Of a stretch of DNA of 64,000 nucleotides, positions 14,383 to 46,691 are shown piece after piece. The position numbers were made by a program, and so were the translations under genes. Where the stretch lies: NCBI GenBank assembly GCA_948434855.1, contig CAOJFR010000003.1, forward strand, positions 977 through 64,976. The letters run 5' to 3'. This stretch comes from an uncultured Clostridia bacterium. Its GTDB lineage: Bacteria; Bacillota; Clostridia; Christensenellales; UBA1242. Under the pieces are notes generated by a model. That model had not been told where the DNA came from. It saw only the letters and a list, made by a program, of their open reading frames with translations, and did not search any database. How positions within the stretch are numbered: the stretch's first letter is position 1; every line of letters starts with the position of its first letter.

Positions 14383-16593
14383 TTATCGTGTCTTAGGTTT
14401 TGCTCTAGAAATAATAACAAATGTAGCAACGGCAACAAGGATTATTCCAGCAACAACAATAAGAATAATTGCAGAAGCATTAAGCTTTTTAGTGAGAGAG
14501 AAGGTGAGGGTATCTGTGGTTCCCATAGAGTCAGTAATTTTAACTGTATAGGTTCCATAGTCGTGGTAGGTAACACTTGAGTTGCCCTTCTCAGAATTAA
14601 GCTCATAAGGCACGGTTTCGCCGTTAAACGTAATTTCAACAATCAGGTCTCCAACGCCTTGGCAATTAAATGTAATATAGTCTTTTCCAATATCCGCTGA
14701 AACATTAACAAGTTGTTTGCCAAGAAGAACGGTATAGGTGTTAATATAAGTTTTGTCTAATGTGGTAGACTTTAAGGTGCTAGGATTGCTGCTAAAAGCC
14801 AAATCAAAATTAATTTTATCATTATTTTCAATTCTTTTAGTGTGAGTGCTTGGCTGGGTTTTATAAGGTTCGCTAGCCTCTAAGGTTTTGCCATCAACAG
14901 TAAAAGTAGATTTTGCCTGTGTAACAATGGTAAAGTTATATTCTTTTTTCTGATTTGTTGAATTTGCTTTGTGAACGGCAATTTGATAATAGCCATCGGC
15001 ATCAGAGATAAATGAAAAGTCGCCATTTTGATTCAAAAAGCCTTTTTCTTCACTGTCAAAGTTTTCATAAATTGTTATATCCCAGTCTGGATGGCTAGCT
15101 TTAAGGTTAACAACCTCGTCAGCATAGGTGCTGCCTGTCGGAATATAATATTCATATTTTGTAATGTTGTCGCTAGAGCCATAAAGGGTTTTACTGATTT
15201 CAATATATTTTATTGCATCCTTAATTCCAACATCGCCATATTTTTGGTTAAGATTTTTGATAGTAGACTTAATAGAATTGTTTTGAATAGAAGTGTTAAC
15301 AATATATTCGCTTGAACCATTTTGTTTGTTAAGTTCAGAAATAATATAAATATTTTCAAAAACAGATTCAGTTGTACCAGAGTCGTCACTAATATAAAAA
15401 CTTGTGCTATAATAGTTTGGGCTTGCACTTCCAAGAAGGTAAGTGTTGTCATAAAATTCTAAAGAGTATCTTCCACGCTTTTCAAAAGTCATTGAAAAGT
15501 TGTCAGACGATTTAATAGATTGACTTGGGTCTGGTGCATAAATTGCATTTCCGTTAGAGTTTACTCCCTGATAAATAAGTGCAGTTGCAAGGCGAGTTAG
15601 TCTTTTGCTTTCGTCAGAGTTTGCGTCATCCCTATAGTCAACAAACAAATAGTTTTCGCTGCCATAAGTTTTAGAAAAAACCTTAAAAGTATAAACAAAG
15701 CCATTAAAGTTAAGGTTAAAATAAAGTGGATTGTCTTCAGAATAATTAAATTTACTGCTTAACATATTGAGTGAAAGTTTGTTATAACTTTGCTCTGGTT
15801 TAAGCCAGTCATCAACTTCATGGTAGCTGCCACTTCTAAAGCTTTCAAAACTAGCAATAGCTTCTTCGTTGTTTGCAAACATAATAGCAGGTTTAGTAAT
15901 GTTTAGTGTATATTTTTGAGCTGTTGTGCTAGTTGGTGTTGTATAAATTTCAATATCAATAGGGTATTCAAATTTTCCATTAAAAGCTGAAGCATTAGAA
16001 CTTAGTGTAATAGAATTGGTTATAATAATTTCATTTCTGTCAGTAAACTTATTAAATTTAATTAGTTCATTAGGCGCATTTTCACTAAAAACGGTTGGAA
16101 TAGCACTTGATGAAGCAGGGTCAACATTATAGATATTTAATCTTTTATCATAAAATCTAAAATAATAAGTTTTGTCACCATATTCAAATGAAGTTGCATT
16201 TGGCTCAGTGGTTATTGTTGAGGTTTTCACTGAAAAATCAGAAGTGTGAGTATAGGTTAAACGATATCTATATTCAAGGGGCATAAAGTTTACTGAAAAT
16301 GCGTCGTTTACGCAAACTATATATTTAACATTAGATCTTTCAACTCTGTTGTTATATCTAACTTCGTCATAGGTTGCCTTCATGTTTTTATAATCAAATC
16401 TGGTGCCTCTCATAGAGAGTGAAAGATAGTTCAAAATAGGGTAGTCCGGCACACTTTGCCCAGTAACAGAAATGCTCTCAGCGTTAGCGTTGCTGATAGC
16501 ATTTTTTGAGCCATTTGGATTAATAGTGTTATAAATTCCAAATGCAAGCACAAAGCATAAAACCAAAAACAATAAACTTTTAAATTTTTTCAT
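14383..16593 (-). CDS. 736-aa surface protein: Sec signal peptide, large N/S/T/Y-rich ectodomain, single C-terminal TM anchor
   Basis: MKKFKSLLFLVLCFVLAFG signal. C-terminus ASAIILIVVAGIILVAVATFVIISRAKPKTR with no LPXTG motif. An Ig-like beta-rich C-proximal region (TFNGETVPYELNS...YTVKITDSMG). RBS AAGGA. The start lies 17 nt after the VirD4 stop, so the two are probably co-transcribed. Confidence 0.75.
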   Translation of the reverse strand: MKKFKSLLFLVLCFVLAFGIYNTINPNGSKNAISNANAESISVTGQSVPDYPILNYLSLSMRGTRFDYKNMKATYDEVRYNNRVERSNVKYIVCVNDAFSVNFMPLEYRYRLTYTHTSDFSVKTSTITTEPNATSFEYGDKTYYFRFYDKRLNIYNVDPASSSAIPTVFSENAPNELIKFNKFTDRNEIIITNSITLSSNASAFNGKFEYPIDIEIYTTPTSTTAQKYTLNITKPAIMFANNEEAIASFESFRSGSYHEVDDWLKPEQSYNKLSLNMLSSKFNYSEDNPLYFNLNFNGFVYTFKVFSKTYGSENYLFVDYRDDANSDESKRLTRLATALIYQGVNSNGNAIYAPDPSQSIKSSDNFSMTFEKRGRYSLEFYDNTYLLGSASPNYYSTSFYISDDSGTTESVFENIYIISELNKQNGSSEYIVNTSIQNNSIKSTIKNLNQKYGDVGIKDAIKYIEISKTLYGSSDNITKYEYYIPTGSTYADEVVNLKASHPDWDITIYENFDSEEKGFLNQNGDFSFISDADGYYQIAVHKANSTNQKKEYNFTIVTQAKSTFTVDGKTLEASEPYKTQPSTHTKRIENNDKINFDLAFSSNPSTLKSTTLDKTYINTYTVLLGKQLVNVSADIGKDYITFNCQGVGDLIVEITFNGETVPYELNSEKGNSSVTYHDYGTYTVKITDSMGTTDTLTFSLTKKLNASAIILIVVAGIILVAVATFVIISRAKPKTR

Positions 16594-16610
16594 AATTTTT
16601 CCTTAAAATA

Positions 16611-18566
16611 TTAATCATCGTCACCAGAAAGCACAATGCTGTTACGTTTTCTAATATCATAAAAAACATCGCTTTCTTTAAATGTTCTTCCAGGAATAAA
16701 CTCTGGTGGAACACTTCCGATTTTGTAAAGATTTGGTGTTTTAAAGTAAGGTGTAACAATAGATTTGCAAGGATATTGCTGGAAGTTGTTAGTAATATTT
16801 TGTCCCAGCGGAATTTTGTCGAGTTCTGAAGGATATATAAGTGGAACCTGTTGAAGAGAAGTTGAGGTTGAAGTTGAACCAGGGTCTTTTCCCTTGGCTT
16901 CACTCTTGCTGCGGCTGTCAACTTCAATAGTGTGCTGACCAAGCTCCTTTGAAAATTCTTCACGAGTTTTAAGGTCAGGGGTGCCATAAAATAGGGTAGA
17001 ACGGCACTGACCACGCACAATTTCAGCAACTTCTTTGCCATAAACATCATCAAGCTGCGAATATGACTGAATTGCCATATTAAGGAAAATCCAACGAGAT
17101 CTTGCAACGGTAATAATTCTGTTTAAGCCCTCAATTTTAGGCATATTGGCAAACTCATCCAAAATATAAAATAATGGGCGTTTAAGGTGAGCCATCTTGT
17201 CGTCAGTCACAGACTCATTTTCACGAGCTTTTTGAACAAATTCCTTATAAGCCTGAGAAATACATACACTGGCAAGTTTATATCTAGTTGCTCTTTCGTC
17301 AGGAATTTTAATAAAGAAAGCAGTTGGTCTGTCGTCAAACTCAGTAAACTTAATATCATTAGAAGAAGTTAAAAAACAGATGCCGTTATCTGAAAAAATT
17401 GATAGGTTTGTTGTAAGTGAAGACATATAGCCGTCACGAGTAACCTGAGCTTTTGTCTGAGTGATGTTTGTTGAAAGTTCTCTAGACTTAGAGAGTGGGT
17501 CACGACCACTAAAATAGTCTTTAACAACTTCATATTCGTCGTCTTTGTTCATGGCAATTTTATAGGCGTTAAAGAAGCAATATTTTTCCTTTGTCATGCC
17601 AAGAGCTTCGTTTTCGCTGTCTTCAAGCATAGCAATAAGACAAGCCTGAAAATAGTCTCTTGCACCGTCTGTCCATTGTTTGTTTTTTGGGTCTGGGTCA
17701 GATGGAACAATAGCACTTGCAATATCATTAAGGCTTTCCATACAGTCGTCTTTAATTTTTTGTTTTTCAACATCAACTTCAACAAGGGTTTCACGAAGAG
17801 TCTGAAAAGCTTTGCCCATAAATTCATACCATTCGTTACTTTTAATGTCGCCAGATTTTAGTAAATTAGGATAATTTTTTATTGGGTCATTAGTGTGTTT
17901 TAAAATTTCCTCTTCAAGATGAAGTCTTTTTTGCCATTGAAGGTAAATATTTTCAAGAGGGTTCCATCTCTTGCTTGCATAAGGCTGAGTAAGGTCAAGT
18001 TGAAGCACGGTATAGCCTTGGTTTTTCATTTTAAGAGAGTGGTGTGAATAAATTTCACCTTTAGGGTCAGTAATAAAAAGAGAAGGCTTGTTTTTAAGTT
18101 CTGTCAAAATCTGCATAGTAGGTTCAACCCAGCAGGCAGTTTTACCAGTTCCAGATGCACCCACAATGAGAACGTGGCAGGCAGGAGTAAAGTGAATGTT
18201 TAAATTCCCGTGCTTATATTCAAACCTAAAAGGAACACCAGTAATGTTTTGATACTTTAGTTCAGTAAACTTGCAGTGCTTAAAGTTTTTATCAAGTTCT
18301 TTAAGGGTTGCAAAGTGTTGGTTTTCCATAGAGCTTTTGCCTTTAAGTTTAAGATCCTTGTCTTTGCCCTTAGAAAGTATAACAAAAAGTCCCATCATCA
18401 AAAATGCGATGAGTGCAATAGAAAGGGTGTTTGCAGAGGTTAAAGAAAACCCACCCTTAAAAATATAGAAATTGGCAAGCACGCCAAGCACGATAGATAA
18501 AACAAAAATAAAAGCAAAAATTATTAGATAAGTCACAAGCTTAGACTTTTTATCACTACTAGACAT
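16611..18566 (-). CDS. virD4: Type IV coupling protein (VirD4/TraG family ATPase)
   Basis: Two N-terminal TM helices, Walker A LIVGASGTGKT, FITDPKGEIY, Walker B-like YILDEFANMP, and the block NMAIQSYSQLDDVYG...RGQC typical of T4CPs. RBS AGGAGA. Confidence 0.85.
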   Translation of the reverse strand: MSSSDKKSKLVTYLIIFAFIFVLSIVLGVLANFYIFKGGFSLTSANTLSIALIAFLMMGLFVILSKGKDKDLKLKGKSSMENQHFATLKELDKNFKHCKFTELKYQNITGVPFRFEYKHGNLNIHFTPACHVLIVGASGTGKTACWVEPTMQILTELKNKPSLFITDPKGEIYSHHSLKMKNQGYTVLQLDLTQPYASKRWNPLENIYLQWQKRLHLEEEILKHTNDPIKNYPNLLKSGDIKSNEWYEFMGKAFQTLRETLVEVDVEKQKIKDDCMESLNDIASAIVPSDPDPKNKQWTDGARDYFQACLIAMLEDSENEALGMTKEKYCFFNAYKIAMNKDDEYEVVKDYFSGRDPLSKSRELSTNITQTKAQVTRDGYMSSLTTNLSIFSDNGICFLTSSNDIKFTEFDDRPTAFFIKIPDERATRYKLASVCISQAYKEFVQKARENESVTDDKMAHLKRPLFYILDEFANMPKIEGLNRIITVARSRWIFLNMAIQSYSQLDDVYGKEVAEIVRGQCRSTLFYGTPDLKTREEFSKELGQHTIEVDSRSKSEAKGKDPGSTSTSTSLQQVPLIYPSELDKIPLGQNITNNFQQYPCKSIVTPYFKTPNLYKIGSVPPEFIPGRTFKESDVFYDIRKRNSIVLSGDDD

Positions 18567-18685
18567 AAGGTTCTCCTAATAATAAATAATATATCAATTA
18601 TGAGTATATCATAATAAATAATTTAATTGCAAATAAAAAAGAATTAATAAAAATAAAAATAAATAAAATTATTTCAAAAAAATTG

Positions 18686-18714
18686 TTGCTATAAAAATTT
18701 AGTTTTGCTAAAAT
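18686..18714 (+). promoter_or_regulatory. Candidate promoter for the pilin-like genes
   Basis: TTGCTA (18686-18691), 17 nt, TAAAAT (18709-18714), in the very AT-rich 172-bp divergent spacer. Pattern match only. Confidence 0.3.
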
Positions 18715-18738
18715 AAAAGAGTAAAGGACGAAAAAATC

Positions 18739-19038
18739 ATGTTAATAAATAGCATTTTATCGTTAATATCGGCAGGTTCTGGTGATGGGGTATTAAATCC
18801 AATCTATGGGGGTTTGTCAACTGTTGGTCCATATGCACTTGGCATTGTAGTTACGCTAAGTTTGTTTTATGGTGTTTTTCTTGGTGTAAAATATGCAAAG
18901 GCCAAGGATGAAACTGAAAAAGCAGGTGCACAAAAAACATTAATCAACTTCATTATTGGTGCGGGTATTGTCATAGTGCTCATTTCCGTGCTCTATGCAA
19001 TCAGAGGGCCACTTGCCGCAATTATTGATGGAAGATAG
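18739..19038 (+). CDS. Small two-helix membrane protein; candidate T4SS pilin (TrbC/VirB2-like), paralog a
   Basis: 99 aa with two hydrophobic helices joined by the charged loop KYAKAKDETEKAGAQK. It is paralogous to the next gene and lies next to virD4. Confidence 0.55.
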   Translation: MLINSILSLISAGSGDGVLNPIYGGLSTVGPYALGIVVTLSLFYGVFLGVKYAKAKDETEKAGAQKTLINFIIGAGIVIVLISVLYAIRGPLAAIIDGR

Positions 19039-19165: not shown

Positions 19166-19552
19166 ATGCAAAATATTTTAAGTTTACTTGCTGCTGGAGG
19201 CTCAACAACAAACACTGAAATTGGCAATGCGGCAGAACAGGCATTTAAAACATTTAAAGGAATTATTAACACAATTTTCCCAATTTTTATTGGTGTAATC
19301 TTAGTTGTTGGATTGTTTTATGGAGTTCAACTTGGCATAAAATATGCAAAAGCTGAAGAAGAGGAAGAAAAGAAGAAGGCAAAAAATCAATTAATCAACG
19401 TTATTGTTGGTTGTTTAATTGCAGTTGTGTTCGTTGCAATTATTGAAATACTTCTACAACAAAACTTTGTTAAAAAGCTTTTCAGCAATGTTGCTCCAGA
19501 TGGCGCTGAAGAGGGTGCAGCATTCATTGGTTTGCTTAGAAATATGCATTAA
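19166..19552 (+). CDS. Small two-helix membrane protein; candidate T4SS pilin (TrbC/VirB2-like), paralog b
   Basis: 128 aa. The core LFYGVQLGIKYAKAEEEEEKKKAKNQLINVIVG aligns with LFYGVFLGVKYAKAKDETEKAGAQKTLINFIIG of paralog a. Strong RBS AAGGAGAAGG. Confidence 0.55.
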   Translation: MQNILSLLAAGGSTTNTEIGNAAEQAFKTFKGIINTIFPIFIGVILVVGLFYGVQLGIKYAKAEEEEEKKKAKNQLINVIVGCLIAVVFVAIIEILLQQNFVKKLFSNVAPDGAEEGAAFIGLLRNMH

Positions 19553-19573: not shown

Positions 19574-19604
19574 AAACACACGCTATTTTTGCGTGTGTTT
19601 TTTA
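19574..19604 (+). terminator. Strong rho-independent terminator after the pilin-like gene pair
   Basis: 10-bp perfect stem AAACACACGC / GCGTGTGTTT with a 7-nt loop, then TTT. A second weaker hairpin, AAATACCC...GGGTATTT plus a T-run, lies at ~19630-19670. Confidence 0.85.
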
Positions 19605-19678: not shown

Positions 19679-19708
19679 TTGTCTTATTATAAATATATAT
19701 GTTATAAT
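19679..19708 (+). promoter_or_regulatory. Candidate promoter for the giant-gene operon
   Basis: TTGTCT (19679-19684), 18 nt, TATAAT (19703-19708). Pattern match only. Confidence 0.3.
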
Positions 19709-26691: not shown

Positions 26692-26694
26692 TAA

Positions 26695-29600: not shown

Positions 29601-29814
29601 AAAGCAATCTGGCATAATCATTAAAACCTTAACTGACGAAATTAAAAAGCTTAGCACTGATTCAGAAAAACTAAACAAAACAAGCGAAGAATATAAGTCT
29701 AAAAAAGCTGTTTTGGATAGATTAAATAACGACCTTGCTAGAGTAAAAAATGATACAAAAATGCTTGAAGATGCCTTTAACAAGCTTGGCATTGGCGAGC
29801 TAAAAAATAAGTAA
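26695..29814 (+). CDS. 1039-aa K/E-rich coiled-coil protein, no TM helix or signal peptide
   Basis: The start is 3 nt after the P1 stop, with the RBS AAGGGGG inside the end of P1. Long heptad-like stretches, e.g. EELEQLRENLRALDTQVTKSADLRRKVKDLKTRISDAEKKLAVLE. No catalytic motif recognised. Confidence 0.75.
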   Translation: MNQSILDEIKSYLNSEVKDPNMAISLMQKIEQAGGEIYKIASESFAELLTAKESEKITEETAKCGYLALSQKDQQKLVGLMGSEEAAKELSYYEVMERLNGKDIVEISDSLEKMADEEDDINYVYALEKDLIEIEDLKKAISAGTDEEVNAFLARYFDGAGYEGTEKQKQMIVMGLGNRDIIVSNLVRLNEKSVENAIKKFERTTPNTKFATLDLSAQNRILAEFYDNSSEETHENADFTYITSLIKGKTNAKEKQQIAEKVMDSASVHGVSVNEEIFNSSSLRQLVGIENIDFKKIDLNRKVIECIDNKVFENLISAIIKDRFDETKEIVEQAKKRVIEKNIEKRKTNDFSYPTDLPNPIKMSMDRKRDFNYRVSLLNRHLRENPDSDILKNIFVNANLVNEQSMLNDMVSRQEELLKKSSKLLPEEVKQFLTTKTVNEYFSENQELKTLMLQIGANNLFLTFTENQLKPKILRAISKNGKLKFAAISHAYEMGKSEEALEKSLRSLLSLDKDYLITFGNRAKLVTKAAILTYLDKGKIIKDKEKEVYEAAKSLQSKDDDFARELYDYITEVVSYSSTASDEEQSRFFGDVKPFVRAKNISEALNTKQNVVLNKAKRFIRTIGNVSQIIGNPKAQISSPAKIRENQEFKRNVMIITDKINHLSTKQSGASYAESAKEILGQYYNRIYNSKNLITRLIGGEVSSESAVIQQRDIFRGLQIMQTQAMKKSESLSRYISAPYDISNDPRFIGKLTHKSGGKLTSKEFNIAMLSELSTTKKGKQIVATTKMQQDFMNKDEKYKAIVEEFNERYMRFKDASEELEQLRENLRALDTQVTKSADLRRKVKDLKTRISDAEKKLAVLEPYMQDAKDTKENYEKKFATKLDKEAKKQKVEPDFSISDIFSYQNIFLKGSTAPVNPETDAKLAMQIRKVTSQFISNMIGNIEKVNSTLKLIDAKPVVLKNTRLGGVVKQSGIIIKTLTDEIKKLSTDSEKLNKTSEEYKSKKAVLDRLNNDLARVKNDTKMLEDAFNKLGIGELKNK

Positions 29815-41600: not shown

Positions 41601-43620
41601 CTATGGCTTATATATGCCAAATGGCTATAATTCGCATGGCTATTATTCAGATGGAACAAACACCTCAAGCGAAAGAACACACAAAGCCTTCAAAAATGTA
41701 ATGAGCTATTTAACAATAAGTGACGAGCAGGCAGAAGGCGATATAGATCTTGGAATAGAGGGCAAATACGAAAGCTTTGACGGAATGACATTCAAAGACT
41801 TCAAGGCATATTTAACTAAGTCATTAGTAGACTATGAGCAAAATGAATCAGAGACAGGTGCAGAAAACGCATCAAGATATTTAACTTTGTTCAATTTAAT
41901 AAGTGGTCAATTTAATTATCACATAAGTGATGGTGCAAATGGCACAAAATTCATTGGAACAACACTTTCTGTAATCAACAAAGATAAGGAAGAAGGTTCA
42001 AATGTGGTTGGCTATAAAGATGAGGTTATTTATCAGGGCAATGATTATGGAACCAAGTCAGTTTTATATGCAAACTTTAATATAGATAGGTCAACTAGAG
42101 GCACAATATTAAAGCTTTGTGGAATAGAAAATAGACCAATAGAAGAGCTTGTTAACCTAGAATATGATGAGCTTTATGAAAGAAACGGATCATATGATGA
42201 GGCAGATGGCGATGTGTTCATTGTTTGCTCTTATGATGAAGATACCGGAAAATATGTTCCATTCCTTGCAAGCAACAGAAAATATTCAGGCACATTTAAT
42301 GGAACAAATTATATGGACTATTTAAATGATTATGGCTATCGTATTTTCACAGACTATTATGATTCAGAAGAGGGCACAAGGTTTGCTTATCCAATCATTG
42401 CAAAAGGTATAGTAACTCCAGACCTCAAACCAACTGCAATCAAAATACAAGATAATGTTGCAAAATTTTATAGAACAGACATAACAGCAACAGGTGCGGT
42501 AGAAGATACAGCACTTCAAACAATAAATGCTTCAGTTGAAACCACAACTGTTGGCTATGTAAAATATGTCAATGTTTCGTCATTCAATCACATTCAAGCA
42601 GAGGGCGAAAGCAAAACAATGTTTATCGGTTCGTCCGATGTAATGAGCTTCATAAAATCCGATGCAAGCGTATACTATGTTCAATATACAAATGTATATA
42701 ATCTTGCAAAAGCGGATGGATTTGATGCCATATCAGTGCTAGATTCATTCTCAGCATTCTTCAATATGTCAGTTCAAATGCACATCATGATGCTGCTTGG
42801 GTTCATAACCCTTGTTCCATTACTGTTCAAGGCATCCGGAGCAGTGCTAAAGAGAATTTTAGACTTAATTTTCTTAGTGCTTGCAGGACCACTTTGCATT
42901 TCAATGAACTCATTAAAGCATACCGATGAAGAACAACAGGCATATAGTTCTTGGAAGAAATATATGTTCAGCACACTGCTTAGTGTGTTTGGCTTAATAA
43001 TCTCATTCAATCTATACTTTATTATGGTTTCAACAGCCATGAATATGACATTTGTGCAAGCGGGCGATTCAACCATGCAAAAACTCAGCATGATAGGTGG
43101 CTTAGGCTTTGTCACCGCACCAGTATTAAATGCATTCCTCAGAATAATATTTGTAGTAATTGCAACCAACATGATAGAAACAACTGCAGATATGCTTCTA
43201 AACATGATAACTGGCGGAAAGGCAAGCAGTTCACTTGGTTCACCACTTGCAGGTGGCAAAAATGCAATAGATTCAATAGTTGACTTAAAGAACAACATGG
43301 TTGGAGACATTAAAAAAGTCACACATGGAGCAAGAGATATAATTAGCGGAAAGATTTTAATTGAGGCAAAAAATGCGATAATAGACTCGCTCCCAGGCAG
43401 TCAAATAGTAAGAGGAGCTGCAGAGACAGTTGGCAGTGCAAAAAATTACTTAAAATCAAGAGAGCTCTATAAAAAGGCAAGGCAAAAAGGCGTAGGAAAA
43501 CTTGCTGCTCATGCTGCTGCAAAAGAGTTCAGAAATAACTATAAAAAGCAAAGGAAGCAAATTAAAGACAGAAGAACTGGCTACACACAAAGCTTCTATG
43601 GCAGAATGGGCTTAAAATAA
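32620..43620 (+). CDS. Giant membrane protein P2 (3666 aa), paralog of P1/P3 with a ~2,800-residue central insertion
   Basis: RBS AGGAGA before the ATG at 32620. The 11.0-kb ORF is uninterrupted. The N-terminal module (32620-~33540) and the C-terminal core with its TM module (42388-43220) align with P1/P3. The centre contains 8 or more copies of an FS.GF...D..TW...D...Y motif. Confidence 0.8.
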   Translation: MLNMLKSLICLIAAEPCSVVSHGQTLSALTTSFAFIFLKNIFMAVWNFILSMIWAIEKFVLGIMDALQTIVYQFLGIGTTVDDYLNFANNNEMTKTLVTTFRAILVVSIVLMIIFTIIAIIRQEVEVATNAKNKSSEESNKKGPIVMKLFKGIMSAILLPFAMIAIIGAVNSVLTAFNNALQGENQTTIAGQVLATSTYDTNKYRQYANNNKRVPIIINAYNVDDYGADEKEKLFYKIKSLSVQKKLINTATDIDKNLLLAFNDSLIYENNKLSNSSAYADYYENFVCTAEQYQVMADFIDYCELTNTNFYIKAIDDNDIEWKYVDSTIFDAKNMALNITYRDANDLDGDGKTNDTYTVSFSMGFDVTSPISNALKSISALLGLNEFGDMTFNEMDRDKNSINLVQWANEKVSLHFSYGFNINDMKTWTPADEILMYEYYHYASNNTLAEFDFSDLSYENRGNATLDAYKIVYRDYYPEAGAFSKEKVIYCVYINGSYYKIKKSEKETDSYGNKYYVLDENDDVRFLEKGYTILSEETEKAMLKFVGKNNNFSLNNPSSWSYTDQILIYEFYKDLSYNNTLSEYNISDLGKGIEVPTYLIRDYDADGNETSKRFVYLNGTYYAVSSPSSGSHYVLTGSTSGTNFLESIDDKYLTTYYNFSGANGAIKLEDPKNEFGISTNSTTNKTPNDFIIDSDDGLIFTNLENGINYVFDKDVDFKLSFSAGFDFRDVDTWSYKDYFLFYLYAKYLNNSSATIDSLKYTPLPGLIGEYNGKYYYKIQSTLTENNTKFKTVYLSIDDIDNISLQNIKNVINVEITLENNRFSTNDELAFTQVSNPSTIFSKTETETKVFTFSSDVSFENVNLWKMRDYILFLLESRGIISITSNFEDFSYNSVCYKGVNIGTNLTTNLYSFGSENNRIYLNEKYLLGLGYNSLDEFLDTNLITFIAKKLSTSSNGEIKKLLLEKDEVISSIANSDAYSGNTHMLSSLAAMLVNLYGLKINSAENIFEIYSDITKYSYSNPSFVADNLSTYTVLDLAIYFLTGSAVGSYEGYVANVNGDLKYIIGDYAISITSGSLFESTIVQRGSLTSGLINLGSMSLSEYYTSMGLDSKVTTISDSEISFRRADNINYIYVNDITNGNYSALDSILAGLGLAQQTAYNIYTNGTSNFVFLGSKNGKSYFIETNSFNLVNTAMLTKETTITLNSTTKPFTQNGTYTANFNGTTTSGFSFMDAAIYELTNDTSIKSFNVYTSALLGGKSYIFVNGNFIEYNNVAINFGSLAAGYDDYTNLIDILVNNYYGSYVVGNIGTTTNSKEFSYSFADFDVEDISSYTPIRLILHRLGLTEGAEKQVSGTLTKSADGSRTYFVIKITDENGKEQTYNINVTELLTEAGQEKTDKINELYYRAALCYGQTTGGFIAPSEAIENLTNLNTSIENAISSYVVSSYTTNILNFTDTMSEEDISTWNWLDIIHYSIYASYRNTDSFVLYSGVNYSGDKEGLYVGLSFGGTTRFVKFSESLLSENGTIKLQKFSAGVESVEFSLDTNSSLIDLLYYKYTGLQRGNVNYVTIGSGEDARKIYSIQDQTTGEYIYYAGYADLDKESSINSVVSEHEYSYLVKATTQNLQTWNLLDLLIKAAEGNTSDRQYQFSSRIYTIDSKKYILVNGYYINLDLVGARLSEKLADGSTTEYVRTIETTLVPTAESFVGYSARLISNVNISSAFNYGFIKLSANNVSKENKPLVTDPETGNVISSNEVKLYFSEGFSFSDYSTWKNSDFMLYYLFKTNHMDANIKSFQHYVNLGYVPATLYNLETYDEFGNLTVNKVYKVGEGECNFGSFANLNSSTVEAYKATGKFSEFIRAISEYKFINANIWQIQYQRELNNISVSANTNADLIVSITDKPITDPGIGSFGYSVTNEINAKDFLFENYYYFNLNSDNEEIKNLFVDTSITDKFDENTDTEIINFKLSSGFNIEDVSTWTILDYIIVREYARDHSASSIFANCSFEELREDFLMKVYVLKSVDGNSKYLKINGQYYNITNALGGETGKLTGAVSSADVVGDDYSYSFRVNAGEMLFNLSRSKEEISRELVSGNNSLVYNLKVADKTYTYYRKVDKNLERVYRVSLTDLDTYTISVMVLEVNWVQKLMNDMQVLYPDLNWSNLIATNGWLDTLGDYHSSYASGQFISSGNTANITAAGMVLSEFLLTIAETSYDGFADYEYSSVFDEDVIDSLMLAMLGEKAYQNVKTQAKVFVEMFNVGFAKILDDVADERGLNIKDGEVSNLTMSVYKSYLASILLSSDLGEYLYTVATRVYAQYAIYESLAFASGDYSSYFAYINGLADENGDTINAFKYASFRELIQFENTSLKDDAVPVYTFNYYAVYKSLANKNATKAEANLSLNMGKFDALVAWVAQVGGMNEMGAKVWLTSRGYKENYTEDQVSSIANHFSVDAPTSYKSVLAALKSSYKSKYMGYRGSTERFDDNDETRFSYMLHVYYSIRQDLNNRMMITLPTYVRIYEDYIDGNIDRWGIECDISIDASSNYIQNYDLYKILLLTNKMSYIGSYILAFFPDIVVTIENDEDLEDFVEDFKVGKYSVDANSLVYRLKSIFPKSTTYGKILNSVFATDSLSVSDIIKKFELYSNSEDGSASSWNTILKTRDNIEALLDELSEVMDLEVGEKTPNGSVHVNFTHEVYNQIYNSLSGLSEKLNDYIGTQNILDKIEKGSITFTLAQFSSNYVESGFEFTIKNKVYKLDTAISTQRLAEYVYGGAYLTQFGIYPQYTSSSFTGIIHPTKAVDPNDGTVKTKLNCFTELRTFAGNVADYTAKLYFLTNLKDLSNNVSDSVLLTEELYTSSGYIGSFFGNTGSSYKTSLEYLILDHIVAEEELSPETMLRLLFGDTEDSLNRMGCTDVYITLLAKYLSRSKTFTAEEISYISLNPNLIKIAENGAISSLSEDFMRAGLRRYLVYIQTTDSTIKTISPETGYTYLTGSDIEGYYGLYMPNGYNSHGYYSDGTNTSSERTHKAFKNVMSYLTISDEQAEGDIDLGIEGKYESFDGMTFKDFKAYLTKSLVDYEQNESETGAENASRYLTLFNLISGQFNYHISDGANGTKFIGTTLSVINKDKEEGSNVVGYKDEVIYQGNDYGTKSVLYANFNIDRSTRGTILKLCGIENRPIEELVNLEYDELYERNGSYDEADGDVFIVCSYDEDTGKYVPFLASNRKYSGTFNGTNYMDYLNDYGYRIFTDYYDSEEGTRFAYPIIAKGIVTPDLKPTAIKIQDNVAKFYRTDITATGAVEDTALQTINASVETTTVGYVKYVNVSSFNHIQAEGESKTMFIGSSDVMSFIKSDASVYYVQYTNVYNLAKADGFDAISVLDSFSAFFNMSVQMHIMMLLGFITLVPLLFKASGAVLKRILDLIFLVLAGPLCISMNSLKHTDEEQQAYSSWKKYMFSTLLSVFGLIISFNLYFIMVSTAMNMTFVQAGDSTMQKLSMIGGLGFVTAPVLNAFLRIIFVVIATNMIETTADMLLNMITGGKASSSLGSPLAGGKNAIDSIVDLKNNMVGDIKKVTHGARDIISGKILIEAKNAIIDSLPGSQIVRGAAETVGSAKNYLKSRELYKKARQKGVGKLAAHAAAKEFRNNYKKQRKQIKDRRTGYTQSFYGRMGLK

Positions 43621-43650: not shown

Positions 43651-46644
43651 ATGTTTGCTAGTGGAGTAACAAGTTTTATTAGCAGTTTGGTGAATGCCGG
43701 TTCATCTGTTTTCTCACGCTTTGTTTGTGCACAAAGTGGCTATGCGTTAGTGCAAACCATATTAAATTTCATTTTTGGCTTGTTATATAATGTGGCAAAA
43801 TATTTGCTTTATATGGTAGACTTAATATTCTCATACATTCAAAAGCTTGCTGGTCTAGACATGGCAATGGATTCGCTAGAGGGTATGCTGTCGCCAGATA
43901 GTGACATTGTGTTCAATTTCCTAGTTTCTGGAAGCGACCTTGTAACAGCAATCCTCAGAAACTTAATTGTGTTAGCGATTGTAGTAATCATCATTTTTGC
44001 AATAGTTGGCATAATAAAAGGTCAATATGATGCAATGAAAAAAAATAGTGCAGCAAGTCCGTTTGACACATTAAAAAGTATGTTCAAGGCGTTCATATTG
44101 TTGTTAGTCACTCCATTCATGACGCTTGGCGGCATCATAGTGTCAGACTTATTGTTGCAAACATTATATAAAGCCACAAATGTCAGTGGAGCAATGTCGT
44201 TAGGCACGCAAGTTTTTGTAACTTCTGCGTCGTCGGCAAATGCCTATAGGGTATATGCGCAAAAAGGAAAGCGTATTCCAATAACGTTTGATGGAACAAA
44301 AAGTTCAGAAATAAATGCATATTTCAGTGAAAATTCTGTTTCAGAGGGCTTCATAAAATATTTGCAAGATAGCAAAAATTCAGGCAACGAAGTCAATCCA
44401 ATATATGCAACCTACATGACATTCATGGCAGCAGATTTCACACCATATCTTTCAATGAACGATGTGCTAAGTGAAAATGAGTCAGTCATAAACACCAAGC
44501 AGCTCTATGACAAATATTATGATTATTACATTCCAAGTGATGATGATGTTTTGTTATATCCCGAGCTCATGAAACTCAGTTCTTATGCAGAGCAATACTA
44601 TGCCATGGCAGATGTCATTGATTTCTGTGTAAGGTCAGGCTCAGAAGTTTATATGAGAACAATAGAGCAGGTATTAAAGAGCGTTTGCAATTTAAGTGAT
44701 GATGTTGCAGATAAAGAAAAGATATTCCAAACAATAATTCGTCATTATGAAATTAAGTTTCATAATGGCTATGACGCAGAAAGTGGTCAGCCAGTAGATG
44801 AAATTTCAATAAAAACAACCAATGACTATTTAATGCAAATAGACAAAAATAGAAATGCGTTAATAAGCTTTAATAGCACATATTTCGCAACAAGCGACAG
44901 TGGCGAACCAGATGTAAAAATGCAAATCAGGTCAATTCACTTGGTTGGAGAAACTGATGAGCTTAGGGGTGCAAAGTTTATTGTTGCCACAAAAAATCAA
45001 GCTTCAGCAAACAACGGAGTCACTCAAGAATATTATCAGCCCCTAGTAAATGGCTATGCAGGAGGCTTCCAAACAGAATTCCAGTCAGATTATATAATGG
45101 ATGGCAACATAATAGTTGCAAAAGGAATTTTCAAAGAAGCAACCTATCCAACAGCAATAAAAATTGCAAGTGGAAGCGTAAATGATACCAATATAATTTT
45201 CTATAGAGAAGACATAGAGTCACAGGCAGTTGGTGAGCTTGGAGATTATTTCTCGTTAAAGGTAGATGCTCCAAAAGGCGGTTTCTTTGGAAGACTTATA
45301 AAAATGATAAAGGCACTCTTTGATCCATCAGAGCTCATTCCAGAAATAAATGTAAACTTTGATGCCTTGGCGCTCACTTACGATAAGTCTAGTGGACCAT
45401 CAGAAGTAGACACACTTCTTAGTGGAAAAATAAGGCTGGGCTATTTCATGAAGTTTTCGCCGACCTATCCAACGGTAGATGGTGTAAGCAATTTCTGCTT
45501 GGCGTTCAATGATTTATATGCTGCACCAAAAATGAACTATTTGCTCTTGGTAATAGGTTCATTCTTACTAGTAAGGGTGTGCTTAAGTGCAATTTCTTCA
45601 TTAATAGAAAGGTCATATGAGTTATTTTTAATATTCTTAACATATCCAGCGGCGTGTGCAACCATACCAATAGATGATGGTGGGGCATACAAAACATGGC
45701 TAAAGGGCTATTTTGAAAGAATATTCAGGGCATATGGCTTCATTCTTGGCATAAATTTTGTATTAATGTTGTTCCCAATAATAGAGAAGATACAGTTTTT
45801 CAGCCAAGATGACATAGGAACATCAAAAATAGTAAGACGAGTGGGCACACTATTTTTCAGTGTAATGTCGGTTCGTCAAATCACAGAAATGCTAAACTTA
45901 TTTGTAGCAATCATGTGTCAGCTTGTTGCCTTCACATTAATAGAGACAATTCCAGAAACCATTTCAACAATAATTGGTGGAAAGGATGCCGCATTAAAGG
46001 TAAAAGACAACAATGTATTCACCAAATTAAAAGACAAGGCGGTCAAAGCAACCACAGCTGTAGCAAAAGTTGCAGTGCCACCGCTTAAAGGCTTAGAATA
46101 TGTGTTTGGTGGAAAGGTTAATAGAAAGAGATTAAGACAAGACTTAAGAAATAAAATTTTAAACAGCACAGGACTTGATGCTTTCTCAGAAATGGGTAAG
46201 TTTATTCCAGGCAGTCAGCTTGTGGCAGAAGCAAAATATAAACTAAATCTAAAAAAGCAAACTGATGAACAAAAGGCTGTTCAAAAAACTCTGTTTGACA
46301 CGCTTAATGATCCACTTGCAAACAAAACTGCAGTTCAAGATGCAATGGCAGAATATCAATCAGCTTCAGTTGCTGCGACTCAAGCTTCAGGTAAAAAATC
46401 ATATGTATGTAAGCTTAACTCAGCACATAAATATACAGATGGTATGATTAGAAGTGAAAATGGCAGAATCAGAAGATATATTATTTCACATGGTGGAACA
46501 AAAGAGTTTAACAATTTCCACGACCTAAGCTATGGAGGCGGATGGCTTTGTCCAAAATGTTTTGAAGATTATAGAGGACAAAATCCAGAGAGCTACAAAC
46601 TTGAAGATATGTCTAAGAAAAAATCAGATTCTGGTGATGCATAA
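43651..46644 (+). CDS. Membrane protein P3 (997 aa), the minimal-core paralog of P1/P2, with a Cys/His cluster in its C-terminal tail
   Basis: RBS AAGGAGA. It contains all the blocks shared with P1/P2, nearly contiguous. TM module 45532-45985. The tail contains C-x5-H ... C-P-K-C. Confidence 0.8.
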   Translation: MFASGVTSFISSLVNAGSSVFSRFVCAQSGYALVQTILNFIFGLLYNVAKYLLYMVDLIFSYIQKLAGLDMAMDSLEGMLSPDSDIVFNFLVSGSDLVTAILRNLIVLAIVVIIIFAIVGIIKGQYDAMKKNSAASPFDTLKSMFKAFILLLVTPFMTLGGIIVSDLLLQTLYKATNVSGAMSLGTQVFVTSASSANAYRVYAQKGKRIPITFDGTKSSEINAYFSENSVSEGFIKYLQDSKNSGNEVNPIYATYMTFMAADFTPYLSMNDVLSENESVINTKQLYDKYYDYYIPSDDDVLLYPELMKLSSYAEQYYAMADVIDFCVRSGSEVYMRTIEQVLKSVCNLSDDVADKEKIFQTIIRHYEIKFHNGYDAESGQPVDEISIKTTNDYLMQIDKNRNALISFNSTYFATSDSGEPDVKMQIRSIHLVGETDELRGAKFIVATKNQASANNGVTQEYYQPLVNGYAGGFQTEFQSDYIMDGNIIVAKGIFKEATYPTAIKIASGSVNDTNIIFYREDIESQAVGELGDYFSLKVDAPKGGFFGRLIKMIKALFDPSELIPEINVNFDALALTYDKSSGPSEVDTLLSGKIRLGYFMKFSPTYPTVDGVSNFCLAFNDLYAAPKMNYLLLVIGSFLLVRVCLSAISSLIERSYELFLIFLTYPAACATIPIDDGGAYKTWLKGYFERIFRAYGFILGINFVLMLFPIIEKIQFFSQDDIGTSKIVRRVGTLFFSVMSVRQITEMLNLFVAIMCQLVAFTLIETIPETISTIIGGKDAALKVKDNNVFTKLKDKAVKATTAVAKVAVPPLKGLEYVFGGKVNRKRLRQDLRNKILNSTGLDAFSEMGKFIPGSQLVAEAKYKLNLKKQTDEQKAVQKTLFDTLNDPLANKTAVQDAMAEYQSASVAATQASGKKSYVCKLNSAHKYTDGMIRSENGRIRRYIISHGGTKEFNNFHDLSYGGGWLCPKCFEDYRGQNPESYKLEDMSKKKSDSGDA

Positions 46645-46662
46645 AACCAAAATTAAAAATAA

Positions 46663-46691
46663 AGACAGGCAGTCATGCTTGTCTTTTTTTT
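46663..46691 (+). terminator. Rho-independent terminator closing the giant-gene operon
   Basis: Stem AGACAGGC / GCTTGTCT (one G-U pair), loop AGTCAT, then TTTTTTT. Confidence 0.8.

What the first reader, a model, noticed from the sequence alone, without database searches (positions are those of the whole stretch)
14383..46691. 32-kb chromosomal T4SS-derived locus dominated by three giant paralogous membrane proteins, with no mobility genes
Nine genes in two divergent units lie between murI and lspA. Each housekeeping gene is insulated from the locus by a strong hairpin terminator (14348-14380 and 46663-46691).

Leftward unit: a VirD4/TraG coupling ATPase (2 TM helices, GASGTGKT, YILDEFANMP, QSYSQL..YG), then 17 nt later a 736-aa surface protein with a signal peptide and a C-terminal anchor.

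Rightward unit: two paralogous two-helix pilin-like proteins come first. After a terminator and a fresh promoter comes a tightly packed 26.8-kb block. It holds P1 (2290 aa), a 1039-aa coiled-coil protein, an 895-aa PrgI/VirB3-VirB4 fusion ATPase, P2 (3666 aa) and P3 (997 aa). The gaps between these genes are 3, 97, 20 and 30 nt.

The only parts I recognise as T4SS are VirD4, VirB4 (with its VirB3-like domain) and the pilin-like pair. I see none of the following:
- relaxase
- integrase or recombinase
- flanking direct repeats
- VirB1/CHAP/NlpC-type wall hydrolase
- VirB8-like protein
- replication or partition genes

About 21 kb (6953 codons) encode three paralogs that probably display very large ectodomains. 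This does not fit a standard Gram-positive conjugation module. It looks like a domesticated T4SS-type machine for cell-cell contact, effector or DNA exchange, or attachment.
Basis: partly seen in the sequence, partly recalled or inferred. Interest (0 to 1): 0.92.

Follow-up and report, generated by a model that had tools for sequence, protein, structure and literature searches.

The report
Chromosomal secretion machine with giant channel proteins
An uncultured gut Clostridia lineage carries, at one fixed chromosomal site, a conjugation-type (type IV) secretion machine that has lost its mobility genes, is conserved as tightly as core housekeeping genes, and has turned its channel protein into three giant copies, so it probably serves cell-to-cell exchange rather than plasmid spread.

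Summary
Nine genes lie between murI and lspA:
- a 736-aa surface protein (S736) and VirD4, transcribed leftward;
- two pilin-like genes, P1, a 1039-aa protein (CC1039), VirB3-VirB4, P2 and P3, transcribed rightward.

No relaxase, integrase or transposase domain occurs anywhere in the 64-kb window, and no repeats bracket the locus.

New findings:
1. P1, P2 and P3 are T4SS parts. Each is a Mycoplasma-ICE CDS16-type (VirB6-like) membrane protein with a 400-3150-aa insert between its two transmembrane blocks. VirB4 passes NCBI's Mollicutes-ICE VirB4 model, and the gene order pilin, VirB6-like, VirB4 matches those ICEs.
2. CC1039 is a detached part of P1's C-terminal tail. In most relatives it is fused to P1 in one ORF of 4100-4900 aa.
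3. At least 16 species-level relatives have the left junction and three have the right junction. Neighbouring genes are much more diverged than the ATPases.
4. Against the closest genome, dS of VirB4 and VirD4 equals that of clpP and clpX. Their dN/dS (0.02-0.04) is equally low. The giant ORFs give 0.13-0.25.
5. A distant relative (L093) keeps a MobL relaxase beside VirD4.

Verdict: a domesticated, functional T4SS. I found no description of it in the papers searched. Its substrate is unknown.

The parts
14348..14380 (-). Hairpin terminator after the S736 gene, separating the leftward unit from murI
   Evidence: Read directly from the sequence: AAAAAAAGGTAAC-GCATTTG-GTTACCTTTTTTT. The automatic scan did not list it.
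14383..16593 (-). S736: a 736-aa membrane-anchored surface protein built from a chain of Ig-like beta-sandwich domains. It has an N-terminal hydrophobic helix and a C-terminal TM anchor.
   Evidence: Hydropathy shows helices at aa 6-24 and 709-727. It has no Pfam, NCBIfam or PDB sequence hit. The AF2 model has pLDDT 82.6 and pTM 0.70 and is all-beta. Foldseek matches multi-Ig ectodomains and adhesins (SiiE, alpha-2-macroglobulin, SspB, cadherin) and no enzyme or VirB8-like fold. It sits next to VirD4 in groups 1 and 2. dN/dS is 0.158.
16611..18566 (-). VirD4/TraG-type coupling ATPase (T4CP) with two N-terminal TM helices
   Evidence: Pfam T4SS-DNA_transf 2.6e-44, TraG-D_C 2e-29 and TrwB_AAD_bind 2.2e-28. 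NCBIfam conju_CD1115 scores 256.3 against a cutoff of 250. TM helices lie at aa 13-31 and 48-66. It is 76-94% identical in the 23 close species-level relatives fetched. dN/dS is 0.041.
18567..18738 (.). AT-rich divergent intergenic region between VirD4 and pil1, holding promoter-like sites on both strands
   Evidence: Sequence read directly. Promoter-like matches on both strands. These are consensus matches only.
18739..19038 (+). pil1: 99-aa two-helix VirB2/TrbC-like pilin-like protein
   Evidence: TM helices at aa 32-50 and 67-85. T4SS_pilin scores 22.7 bits, below the 26.6 cutoff. Mbov_0395 family scores 25.5, below 40. It is a paralog of pil2 (repeat family D5). dN/dS is 0.044.
19166..19552 (+). 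pil2: 128-aa two-helix pilin-like protein
   Evidence: Pfam T4SS_pilin 30.9 against cutoff 26.6. NCBIfam ICE_MMCAP2_0565 (Mbov_0395 pilin-like conjugal transfer protein) 48.6 against cutoff 40.
19574..19600 (+). Terminator-like hairpin after pil2
   Evidence: 10-bp stem followed by a T-run.
19679..19708 (+). Promoter-like site before P1 (TTGTCT, 18 nt, TG-TATAAT)
   Evidence: 10 of 12 matches with an extended -10. Consensus match only.
19819..26691 (+). P1: 2290-aa VirB6-like (CDS16-family) polytopic membrane protein. It has an N-terminal TM block, an ectodomain of about 1300 aa, a C-terminal TM block (aa ~1540-1715) and a tail of about 580 aa.
   Evidence: NCBIfam MMCAP2_0566_fam 2e-21 and Mbov_0396 TM 1.1e-10, both below cutoff. 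TM map. Paralogy to P2 and P3. Orthologues of 4106-4923 aa carry the CC1039 region as their C-terminus. dN/dS is 0.245.
26695..29814 (+). CC1039: 1039-aa soluble helical protein, the detached C-terminal module of P1's tail (a gene fission)
   Evidence: No TM helix or signal peptide. The junction reads GGC TAA TAA ATG with an AAGGGGG ribosome-binding site. The same split occurs in at least 5 independent samples. jackhmmer shows aa 20-1039 collinear with the end of the fused giant orthologues. No Pfam, NCBIfam, PHROG or PDB match. dN/dS is 0.25.
29912..32599 (+). VirB4 ATPase with an N-terminal VirB3-like two-helix hairpin (895 aa)
   Evidence: NCBIfam VirB4_plasma (Mbov_0397 ICE ATPase) 596.5 against cutoff 590, covering aa 22-903. 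Pfam P-loop_TraG, AAA_10 and DUF87. N-terminal hairpin. It is 81-98% identical in 19 species. dN/dS is 0.020.
32620..43620 (+). P2: 3666-aa VirB6-like paralog. It has an N-terminal TM block, a non-repetitive N/Y/S/T-rich ectodomain of about 3150 aa, a C-terminal TM block (aa ~3377-3530) and a K-rich tail.
   Evidence: NCBIfam Mbov_0396 3.2e-16 and MMCAP2_0566 1.4e-15 on aa 46-220. The C block aligns to P1 and P3. No internal repeats. Orthologues of 3607-3886 aa are intact. dN/dS is 0.149.
43651..46644 (+). P3: 997-aa VirB6-like paralog with the smallest ectodomain (about 400 aa)
   Evidence: NCBIfam MMCAP2_0566 1.4e-24 and Mbov_0396 2.1e-15. In the AF2 model the ectodomain (aa ~200-520) has pLDDT 80-92, and Foldseek finds no PDB match at E <= 0.001. 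A representatives search finds 1463 clusters in the family. dN/dS is 0.126.
46663..46691 (+). Hairpin terminator after P3, before lspA
   Evidence: Read directly from the sequence: GACAGGCA-GTCA-TGCTTGTC followed by T9.

Best explanation
This is a vertically inherited, chromosomally fixed type IV secretion system. It derives from the monoderm conjugation lineage whose best-known members are the Mycoplasma/Spiroplasma ICE and plasmid T4SSs. It lacks the relaxase and recombinase functions of a mobile element and is maintained as a cellular organelle.

Shown:
- The part list is VirD4, a VirB3-VirB4 fusion, two VirB2-like pilin-like proteins, three CDS16-type (VirB6-like) channel paralogs and an Ig-domain surface protein.
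- The locus sits at the same site in many species.
- Its age equals that of the flanking core genes.
- The two ATPases are constrained as strongly as ClpP and ClpX, and the giant ORFs are under purifying selection.

Inferred mechanism:
- The VirB6-like paralogs form the membrane translocon, energised by VirB4 and VirD4.
- Their 400-3150-aa extracytoplasmic inserts, with the pilin-like proteins and S736, extend through and beyond the peptidoglycan. This would replace the missing VirB8-like and VirB1-like wall components and make contact with another cell.
- The long, fast-evolving tails of P1 and CC1039 lie in the cytoplasm as a docking or scaffold region.
- The machine then moves a macromolecular substrate (DNA or protein, unresolved) between cells.

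My preferred reading is a lifestyle-critical cell-to-cell exchange apparatus, comparable to the chromosomal, relaxase-less T4SS of Patescibacteria, rather than a device for spreading a mobile element.
For: Components:
- Profile matches.
- Both halves of the 306-position Mbov_0396 model match the N and C TM blocks of P1, P2 and P3.
- Compact relatives have the two blocks adjacent, with a loop under 100 aa, so the giant inserts are derived.

Fixed position:
- The order comEC-holA-x-M28-rpsT-murI | S736-VirD4 | pil1-pil2-P1 is kept at the left junction (murI next to S736-VirD4) in at least 16 species-level genomes; the full order back to comEC is seen in 13 of them.
- P2-P3 | lspA-rluD-tig-clpP-clpX is kept in three more and in L103.
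- A farther group (VirD4 54-60% identical) also has VirD4 beside murI, rpsT or both.

No mobility:
- No Pfam mobility domain in 64 kb.
- No bracketing repeats.
- No close plasmid or viral relatives.
- A distant relative, L093, has a MobL relaxase and a primase-polymerase-like protein directly upstream of VirD4. This shows what has been lost.

Selection:
- dS: VirB4 0.90, VirD4 1.07, clpP 1.07, clpX 1.13.
- dN/dS: VirB4 0.020, VirD4 0.041, clpP 0.027, clpX 0.054.
- dN/dS of the large proteins: P1 0.245, CC1039 0.25, P2 0.149, P3 0.126, S736 0.158.
- In relatives where clpX is 82-83% identical, VirB4 is 81-89% and murI 42-50%.

S736 is a chain of Ig-like domains.

Precedent:
- MICE module functions are described in PMC6030558 and PMC12857230.
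- The chromosomal relaxase-less Patescibacteria T4SS with VirB2-like pilins is described in PMC12102498.
Against: - No substrate, partner cell or expression data exist. The function is inferred from anatomy and selection only.
- A relaxase could be encoded elsewhere in the genome, which I could not scan.
- The VirB6-like assignment rests on sub-threshold NCBIfam hits and on the literature's 'likely VirB6-like' label for CDS16. The AF2 model of the TM parts was of low confidence, so the fold was not verified.
- Topology (ectodomain outside, tails inside) is inferred from hydropathy and composition only.
- The fastest-evolving parts are the presumed cytoplasmic tails, not the ectodomains. A simple 'surface arms race' reading does not predict this.
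- dS is near saturation, so the dN/dS values are approximate.
Confidence: 0.62

Rival explanations
1. This is a chromosome-borne conjugation machine for DNA exchange between conspecific cells. It would be comparable to ICE-driven mycoplasma chromosomal transfer or to mycobacterial distributive conjugal transfer. The T4SS has become a host gene set that mediates 'sex'. The variable surface parts would set mating specificity.
For: - The closest characterised relatives (Mbov_0395, Mbov_0396 and Mbov_0397 families) belong to mycoplasma ICEs. These also move chromosomal DNA, and no relaxase has been identified in them (PMC6030558; PMC12857230).
- VirD4 is of the conjugative DNA-transfer type, with TraG-D_C and TrwB_AAD_bind domains and a pass of the conju_CD1115 equivalog.
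- A surface protein next to the channel genes parallels the essential CDS14 lipoprotein of ICEA (PMC6030558).
Against: - ATPase constraint equal to ClpP and ClpX, and retention at one site in every relative fetched that spans the site, is stronger than I would expect for a facultative mating function.
- dS of VirB4 and VirD4 equals that of the flanking genes, so there is no sign that the locus itself is being exchanged between species.
- Coupling proteins also serve protein-translocating T4SSs, so VirD4 does not discriminate between the readings.
Confidence: 0.25
2. This is an ordinary integrative conjugative element, or the decaying remnant of one, that happens to sit between murI and lspA.
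For: - The gene set is conjugation-derived.
- A distant relative, L093, is an ICE-like element with a MobL relaxase.
- Mycoplasma ICEs also lack a recognisable relaxase (PMC6030558).
Against: - The insertion site and gene order are the same at the left junction in at least 16 species-level genomes whose neighbours have diverged to 42-50% (murI).
- No integrase, DDE transposase, repeats or partition genes were found.
- dS matches that of the flanks.
- ORFs of 3600-4900 aa are intact, with dN/dS of 0.13-0.25.
- Nothing similar is found on plasmids or viral contigs.
Confidence: 0.04
3. This is mainly an adhesion or surface-display apparatus. The ATPases and channel would serve only to export and anchor the giant ectodomains and pilin-like filaments, and nothing would be transferred to another cell.
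For: - About 21 kb encode ectodomain-rich proteins.
- S736 is a chain of Ig-like domains like known adhesins.
- Pilin-like proteins are present.
Against: - A highly constrained coupling protein (VirD4, dN/dS 0.041) is the substrate receptor of T4SSs and is dispensable for pilus or surface-structure biogenesis in the well-studied Gram-negative systems. That last point is established knowledge, not tested here.
- The ectodomains are integral loops of polytopic proteins. Such loops are inserted by the general membrane machinery and do not need a T4SS.
Confidence: 0.09

Closest known systems
Conjugative module of Mollicutes ICEs (MICE: ICEA of M. agalactiae, ICEB of M. bovis; genes CDS5, CDS13/15, CDS16, CDS17, CDS14) and the related Spiroplasma plasmid T4SSs
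   Same: - VirB4 belongs to the Mbov_0397 family and passes the NCBIfam equivalog cutoff.
- Only Mollicutes records align over the full length of VirB4, including the N-terminal domain.
- A pilin-like Mbov_0395-family protein is present.
- The polytopic membrane protein is of the CDS16/Mbov_0396 type.
- Gene order is the same: pilin, VirB6-like, VirB4.
- No VirB1-like or VirB8-like part and no recognisable relaxase are present.
- A dedicated surface protein is present.
   Different: - The locus is not mobile: it has no DDE transposase or terminal repeats and sits at one fixed site.
- The host has a peptidoglycan wall, shown by murI, a PBP, Mur ligases and FtsW in the window.
- The CDS16-type protein is triplicated and carries inserts of 400-3150 aa and long tails.
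- VirB4 identity is only 25-33%.
- S736 is not homologous to CDS14.
- VirD4 matches the Clostridioides CD1115 family rather than a mycoplasma model.
Chromosomal, relaxase-less T4SS of Patescibacteria/Saccharibacteria (essential for epibiotic growth of Southlakia epibionticum; PMC12102498, PMC12857230)
   Same: - The host is monoderm.
- The core derives from the MPF-FATA class.
- The locus is chromosomal and conserved across the lineage.
- No relaxase lies nearby.
- VirB2-like (T4SS_pilin, PF18895) paralogs lie beside the locus.
- A coupling protein is retained.
   Different: - The host phylum differs (Clostridia).
[quoted passage not shown]
- Giant VirB6-like paralogs are not described there.
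- No VirB3-VirB4 fusions were found there, whereas one is likely here.
- Phylogenetic placement of this VirB4 relative to the Patescibacteria clade was not tested.
Rickettsiales vir homolog (rvh) T4SS with tandem 'extended VirB6' paralogs
   Same: - A domesticated chromosomal T4SS without conjugation functions.
- Several tandem VirB6 paralogs enlarged by big hydrophilic domains of unknown role (PMC12857230 on extended VirB6 proteins).
   Different: - It is a Gram-negative P-type system with VirB7-11 and an outer-membrane core.
- It has no sequence relation beyond the ATPases.
- Its paralogs are far smaller than P2.
Gram-positive conjugative T4SSs of ICEs and plasmids (Clostridioides CTn CD1110/CD1115 families, pCF10 Prg/Pcf, Tn916 type)
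   Same: - VirD4 passes the conju_CD1115 equivalog.
- VirB4 hits conju_CD1110 at 1.3e-43.
- A distant relative, L093, has MobL, VirD4, a large surface protein, a CDS16-like protein and VirB4 on an ICE-like element.
   Different: No relaxase, VirB1-type hydrolase, VirB8-like protein, integrase or mobile context was found here.

Membership tests
Type IV secretion system (superfamily) | VirB4-family ATPase | tested here: met
   NCBIfam VirB4_plasma scores 596.5 against a cutoff of 590. Pfam P-loop_TraG 3.8e-20 and AAA_10.
Type IV secretion system (superfamily) | VirD4-type coupling protein | tested here: met
   Pfam T4SS-DNA_transf 2.6e-44. NCBIfam conju_CD1115 scores 256.3 against a cutoff of 250.
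Type IV secretion system (superfamily) | Polytopic VirB6-like channel protein | tested here: inconclusive
   P1, P2 and P3 hit the Mbov_0396 and MMCAP2_0566 models at E 1e-10 to 1e-24, but below the curated cutoffs. The literature calls CDS16 only 'likely' VirB6-like (PMC12857230). The AF2 TM region was of low confidence.
Mollicutes ICE (MICE) | Mbov_0397-type VirB4, Mbov_0395 pilin-like protein and CDS16-type membrane protein in that order | tested here: met
   The window order is pil1-pil2-P1-(CC1039)-VirB4.
Mollicutes ICE (MICE) | DDE (Mutator-like) transposase CDS22, terminal inverted repeats, and variable or multiple insertion sites (mobility) | tested here: not met
   No transposase domain in 64 kb. 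No bracketing repeats. The left junction is the same in at least 16 species.
Mollicutes ICE (MICE) | CDS14 surface lipoprotein | tested here: not met
   S736 has no NCBIfam or Pfam hit. It has an N-terminal helix and a C-terminal TM anchor but no typical lipobox (sequence). It is a functional analogue at most.
Conjugative element (ICE or plasmid) of Firmicutes, MPF-FATA class | Relaxase next to the T4CP or T4SS | tested here: not met
   None in the window. The CC1039 Helitron_like_N hint was rejected. L093 shows MobL in that position. The rest of the genome was not scanned.
Conjugative element (ICE or plasmid) of Firmicutes, MPF-FATA class | VirB1-like wall hydrolase and VirB8-like protein | tested here: not met
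   No Pfam or NCBIfam hit at E <= 5 in any locus protein. The S736 fold is Ig-like, not NTF2-like. The P3 ectodomain has no PDB match. The ectodomains of P1 and P2 were not modelled.
Conjugative element (ICE or plasmid) of Firmicutes, MPF-FATA class | Integrase or recombinase, att repeats, patchy distribution | tested here: not met
   dS equals that of the flanks.
Patescibacteria-type chromosomal T4SS | Chromosomal, lineage-wide and relaxase-less, with VirB2-like T4SS_pilin genes | tested here: met
   This is a likeness in kind only.
Patescibacteria-type chromosomal T4SS | VirB4 inside the monophyletic Patescibacteria clade | not tested
   No VirB4 phylogeny was built. The host is a Clostridia MAG according to the record titles.

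The most novel reading that the evidence does not exclude
A walled Firmicute lineage has converted a conjugation machine into an indispensable, lineage-defining conduit to other cells. Triplicated VirB6-type channel proteins, enlarged up to about ten-fold or more, would themselves build the wall-spanning and extracellular part of the apparatus in place of VirB8-like and VirB1-like components. The machine would import or exchange macromolecules or metabolites with partner bacteria. This would be a Gram-positive counterpart of the epibiont T4SS of Patescibacteria, and the first dedicated non-conjugative T4SS organelle in Clostridia.
Probability: 0.25. Interest if true: 0.9.

Novelty: new variant of a known kind. 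Interest (0 to 1): 0.78.

Why it matters
A recent T4SS review calls it a long-standing open question whether Gram-positive T4SSs have evolved beyond conjugation (PMC12857230).

This locus is a candidate for testing that question:
- It is conserved across at least 16-19 species-level gut genomes.
- Its ATPases are constrained like ClpP and ClpX.
- It has no mobility genes.

The family behind it is large and lacks any Pfam match in the members examined (P1-P3 scanned directly; '-' precomputed for P0001-P0017). The P3 family has 1463 clusters at 50% identity, with members up to 7309 aa.

It also links the 'minimal' Mycoplasma ICE T4SS to walled Clostridia. It offers an evolutionary series that can be used to study what extended VirB6 domains do:
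- an ICE with a MobL relaxase (L093);
- compact chromosomal loci;
- loci with giant paralogs.

If the host lineage is partner-dependent, the locus would be the prime candidate for the interaction machinery.

Tried and rejected
1. Hidden relaxase in CC1039. A weak Pfam Helitron_like_N (HUH Rep) hit at aa 406-481 (E 0.012, 16 bits against a cutoff of 28.9) falls in the region conserved among relatives. An 8-sequence alignment shows no conserved His, Tyr, Asp or Glu; the invariant residues are M, L, N, N, K, F, F. A profile search of the PDB found nothing relevant. Rejected as a chance hit.

2. Recent horizontal transfer as the cause of the high VirB4 and VirD4 identity. Rejected because their dS equals that of clpP, clpX and tig.

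3. Assigning the host to the reduced-genome family UBA1242 (PMC12306168), which would have supported a partner-dependent lifestyle. ClpX is only 59-60% identical to UBA1242 members (Caccovivens, KG228-83), the same as to unrelated Clostridia. The host lineage and genome size therefore remain unknown, and I use that paper as context only.

4. A structural test of VirB6 likeness. The TM parts of the AF2 P3 model had pLDDT below 60, and Foldseek gave no hit at E <= 0.001. Uninformative.

The right flank was obtained instead through P3 homologues.

6. PDB sequence searches for S736, P1, P2 and CC1039 found nothing. PHROGs, viral contigs and a plasmid search with P3 also found nothing.

7. Internal repeats in P1, P2, S736 and CC1039: none.

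8. The proximity of comEC as a functional link. Discounted, because comEC-holA-rpsT is, from my own knowledge of Bacillus gene order and not tested here, a common housekeeping arrangement.

Full report
**What is there**

The window is low-GC DNA (about 33%) from an uncultured gut 'Clostridia bacterium'. The closest public genome is CATLBG01, with VirB4 98% identical. The exact locus recurs in at least five independent samples.

- S736, 14383-16593 (-)
- VirD4, 16611-18566 (-)
- pil1, 18739-19038, and pil2, 19166-19552
- P1, 19819-26691
- CC1039, 26695-29814
- VirB4, 29912-32599
- P2, 32620-43620
- P3, 43651-46644

The gaps are 17, 3, 97, 20 and 30 nt. Hairpin terminators are visible at 14348-14380, 19574-19600 and 46663-46691.

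The flanks are ordinary core genes:
- Left: comEC, holA, an M28 peptidase, rpsT, murI.
- Right: lspA, rluD, tig, clpP, clpX, engB, mraZ, mraW, a PBP, murE, mraY, murD, ftsW.

The organism therefore makes peptidoglycan. None of the 43 window ORFs scanned (every non-nested ORF of 100 aa or more) has a relaxase, integrase, transposase, replication or partition domain. No repeat pair brackets the locus.

**The T4SS parts**

VirD4 and VirB4 give strong profile matches. With NCBI's curated models:
- VirB4 passes the equivalog 'Mbov_0397 family ICE element conjugal transfer ATPase' over its whole length (596.5 bits, cutoff 590).
- pil2 passes 'Mbov_0395 family pilin-like conjugal transfer protein' (48.6, cutoff 40).
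- VirD4 passes the Clostridioides 'CD1115' VirD4-like equivalog.

P1, P2 and P3 hit the next gene family of the same mycoplasma ICEs, Mbov_0396/MMCAP2_0566. This is CDS16, the eight-helix protein regarded as the VirB6-like channel component (PMC12857230). The hits range from E 1e-10 to 1e-24 and fall below the curated cutoffs.

- The N-half of that 306-position model matches the N-terminal TM block of each protein.
- The C-half of the model matches a C-terminal TM block.
- These blocks are also what the three proteins share with each other.

The 'three giant paralogous membrane proteins' are therefore T4SS channel proteins split by an insert of about 400 aa (P3), 1300 aa (P1) or 3150 aa (P2).

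Other structural points:
- The inserts are non-repetitive and rich in N, Y, S and T. The tails are K-rich.
- Gene order (pilin, VirB6-like, VirB4) is collinear with Mbov_0395, Mbov_0396 and Mbov_0397.
- The VirB4 N-terminus carries a two-helix hairpin, as expected for a VirB3 fusion.
- In the plasmid collection, only Spiroplasma plasmids and a Mesomycoplasma record align to VirB4 over its full length, at 25-27% identity. Nothing exceeds 33%, and P3 has no match.

**CC1039 is a piece of P1**

I merged overlapping loci from six relatives.
- In five of them the P1 orthologue is one ORF of 4106-4923 aa. Its order is N TM block, an ectodomain of about 900 aa, C TM block, then a tail of 2800-3500 aa.
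- An iterated profile search shows that CC1039 aa 20-1039 is collinear with the end of that tail.
- A 780-aa ORF seen before VirB4 in some genomes equals CC1039 aa 540-1039. The tail has therefore been split at different points in different lineages.
- In the window the junction is GGC TAA TAA ATG, preceded by AAGGGGG. This is a clean two-gene arrangement, found unchanged in several samples.

A weak Helitron_like_N hit in CC1039 was examined and rejected.

**Surface protein**

S736 has an N-terminal hydrophobic helix and a C-terminal anchor. It folds with confidence (pLDDT 82.6) into a chain of beta-sandwich domains. These resemble multi-Ig ectodomains and bacterial adhesins. There is no VirB8-like or enzymatic fold.

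The P3 ectodomain is also predicted with confidence (pLDDT 80-92 for aa 200-520) but has no solved structural relative.

**Fixed chromosomal position**

- VirB4 relatives at 81-98% identity occur in 19 species-level genomes. Relatives at 40-46% occur in eight more.
- At least 16 of the VirD4-anchored loci keep murI next to S736-VirD4; 13 show the full order comEC-holA-x-M28-rpsT-murI-S736-VirD4-pil1-pil2-P1.
- A farther group, with VirD4 at 54-60%, still has VirD4 beside murI, rpsT or both.
- On the right, P2 (3607-3886 aa) and P3 (926-1314 aa) are followed by lspA-rluD-tig-clpP-clpX in three relatives whose P3 is only 36-58% identical, and the closest genome (L103, P3 67% identical) shows the same junction.
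- Compact loci from MAGs labelled Christensenella sp. (VirD4 35-41%) have the same divergent layout: VirD4 followed by a 2772-2903-aa surface protein, and divergently pilin(s), a VirB6-like protein of about 900 aa, then VirB4. The scanned flanks hold housekeeping genes or ORFs without a Pfam match, and none holds a mobility gene.
- In these compact proteins the two TM blocks are adjacent, so the giant inserts are derived.
- A still more distant termite-gut Bacillota locus, L093, has ruvAB-queA-tgt, then a primase-polymerase-like protein, a MobL relaxase, VirD4, a 1784-aa surface protein, a CDS16-like protein and VirB4. This is a bona fide ICE-like relative and shows what the window locus lacks.

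**Selection**

I compared the window with the closest genome by the Nei-Gojobori method.

| Gene | dS | dN/dS |
|---|---|---|
| VirB4 | 0.90 | 0.020 |
| VirD4 | 1.07 | 0.041 |
| pil1 | 1.34 | 0.044 |
| clpP | 1.07 | 0.027 |
| clpX | 1.13 | 0.054 |
| tig | 1.02 | 0.107 |
| lspA | 1.22 | 0.115 |
| P3 | 1.80 | 0.126 |
| P2 | 1.30 | 0.149 |
| S736 | 1.33 | 0.158 |
| P1 | 1.23 | 0.245 |
| CC1039 | 1.64 | 0.25 |
| murI | 0.63 | 0.29 |

- The T4SS genes are as old as their neighbours in this comparison. Their high identity is not due to recent transfer.
- The ATPases are as constrained as ClpP and ClpX.
- The large proteins are in the range of lspA and murI, so they are functional and not decaying.
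- dS is close to saturation, so the ratios are approximate.
- Along the proteins, the TM blocks and membrane-proximal ectodomain are most conserved. The middle of the P2 insert is more variable. The tails are the most variable.

**Interpretation**

The locus is a domesticated T4SS of the Mollicutes-ICE/MPF-FATA lineage.

Shown: composition, fixed position, shared age with the chromosome, purifying selection, and the absence of mobility genes from the window.

Inferred:
- The three VirB6-like paralogs form the translocon.
- Their inserts, the pilin-like proteins and S736 reach across the wall to another cell.
- VirD4 recruits a substrate.

I favour a lifestyle-critical cell-to-cell exchange apparatus, by analogy with the relaxase-less chromosomal T4SS of Patescibacteria (PMC12102498, PMC12857230). 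The reason is that the ATPase constraint and universal retention look more like a core function than facultative mating. DNA exchange of the mycoplasma chromosomal-transfer type is the main rival. An ordinary or decaying ICE is effectively excluded.

**Limits**

- I could not scan whole genomes for a relaxase encoded elsewhere.
- I could not place the host in GTDB.
- I could not link the host to the reduced-genome family UBA1242. ClpX identity to its members is no higher than to other Clostridia.

**Novelty**

My paper searches found descriptions of MICE, the Patescibacteria T4SS and extended VirB6 proteins. They found none of this Clostridia system or of the giant CDS16-type family. That family has 1463 clusters at 50% identity, with members up to 7309 aa. 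I class the finding as a new variant of a known kind.

Noticed in passing
L093:6772-21743: A termite-gut Bacillota MAG carries an ICE-like relative next to ruvAB-queA-tgt. It encodes an NrS-1 primase-polymerase-like protein, a MobL relaxase, VirD4 (33% identical), a 1784-aa surface protein, a 512-aa CDS16-like protein and VirB4. It may represent the mobile ancestor type of the domesticated loci.
   Followed up: partly
L058, L074, L080, L092 (about 11900-21700 in each): In the compact loci from MAGs labelled Christensenella sp., the gene after VirD4 encodes a protein of 2772-2903 aa. The two scanned (L080, L092) have no Pfam domain. Two (L058, L080) share only a ~100-aa stretch with S736. An unknown protein of 620-730 aa lies between the pilin and the VirB6-like gene in L058, L080 and L092, and a protein of about 940 aa follows VirB4 in L066 and L074.
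   Followed up: partly
P0108, P0138, P0139, P0129, P0122: The P3/CDS16-like family includes predicted proteins of 7309, 6969, 4833, 4794 and 4763 aa in public metagenomes. On contig CALWNC010000001.1 the P1 orthologue could reach about 6800 aa if the 2.4 kb I did not fetch between L030 and L002 is open.
   Followed up: no
L061:7317-8663: An AAA_14/DUF4143 ATPase gene is inserted between the two pilin-like genes of one compact locus. It is absent from the sister locus L066.
   Followed up: no
window:48168-48855: Two small ORFs (104 and 105 aa) between rluD and tig have no Pfam match. ORFs of the same size and position occur in all three relatives examined (104-111 aa).
   Followed up: no
window:6030-7289: A single ORF combines a PnuC-type nicotinamide mononucleotide transporter domain with a GNAT acetyltransferase domain.
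   Followed up: no
L186:22339-22781 (gene runs off the locus): In one relative the called gene after ftsL is 1123 aa long. It carries both PBP transpeptidase/PASTA and Mur-ligase domains. This is an apparent PBP-MurE fusion or a gene-calling merge.
   Followed up: no
L105:1-4700: A more distant relative (ClpX 68%) keeps lspA-rluD-tig-clpP-clpX. It has only small ORFs, and no T4SS genes, in the 4.7 kb upstream of lspA. The insertion at this site therefore appears restricted to the window's clade.
   Followed up: partly
window:3796-3870: A single tRNA-Glu(CTC) gene is the only Rfam or ARAGORN hit in the window. No tRNA lies next to the locus that could have served as an integration site.
   Followed up: yes
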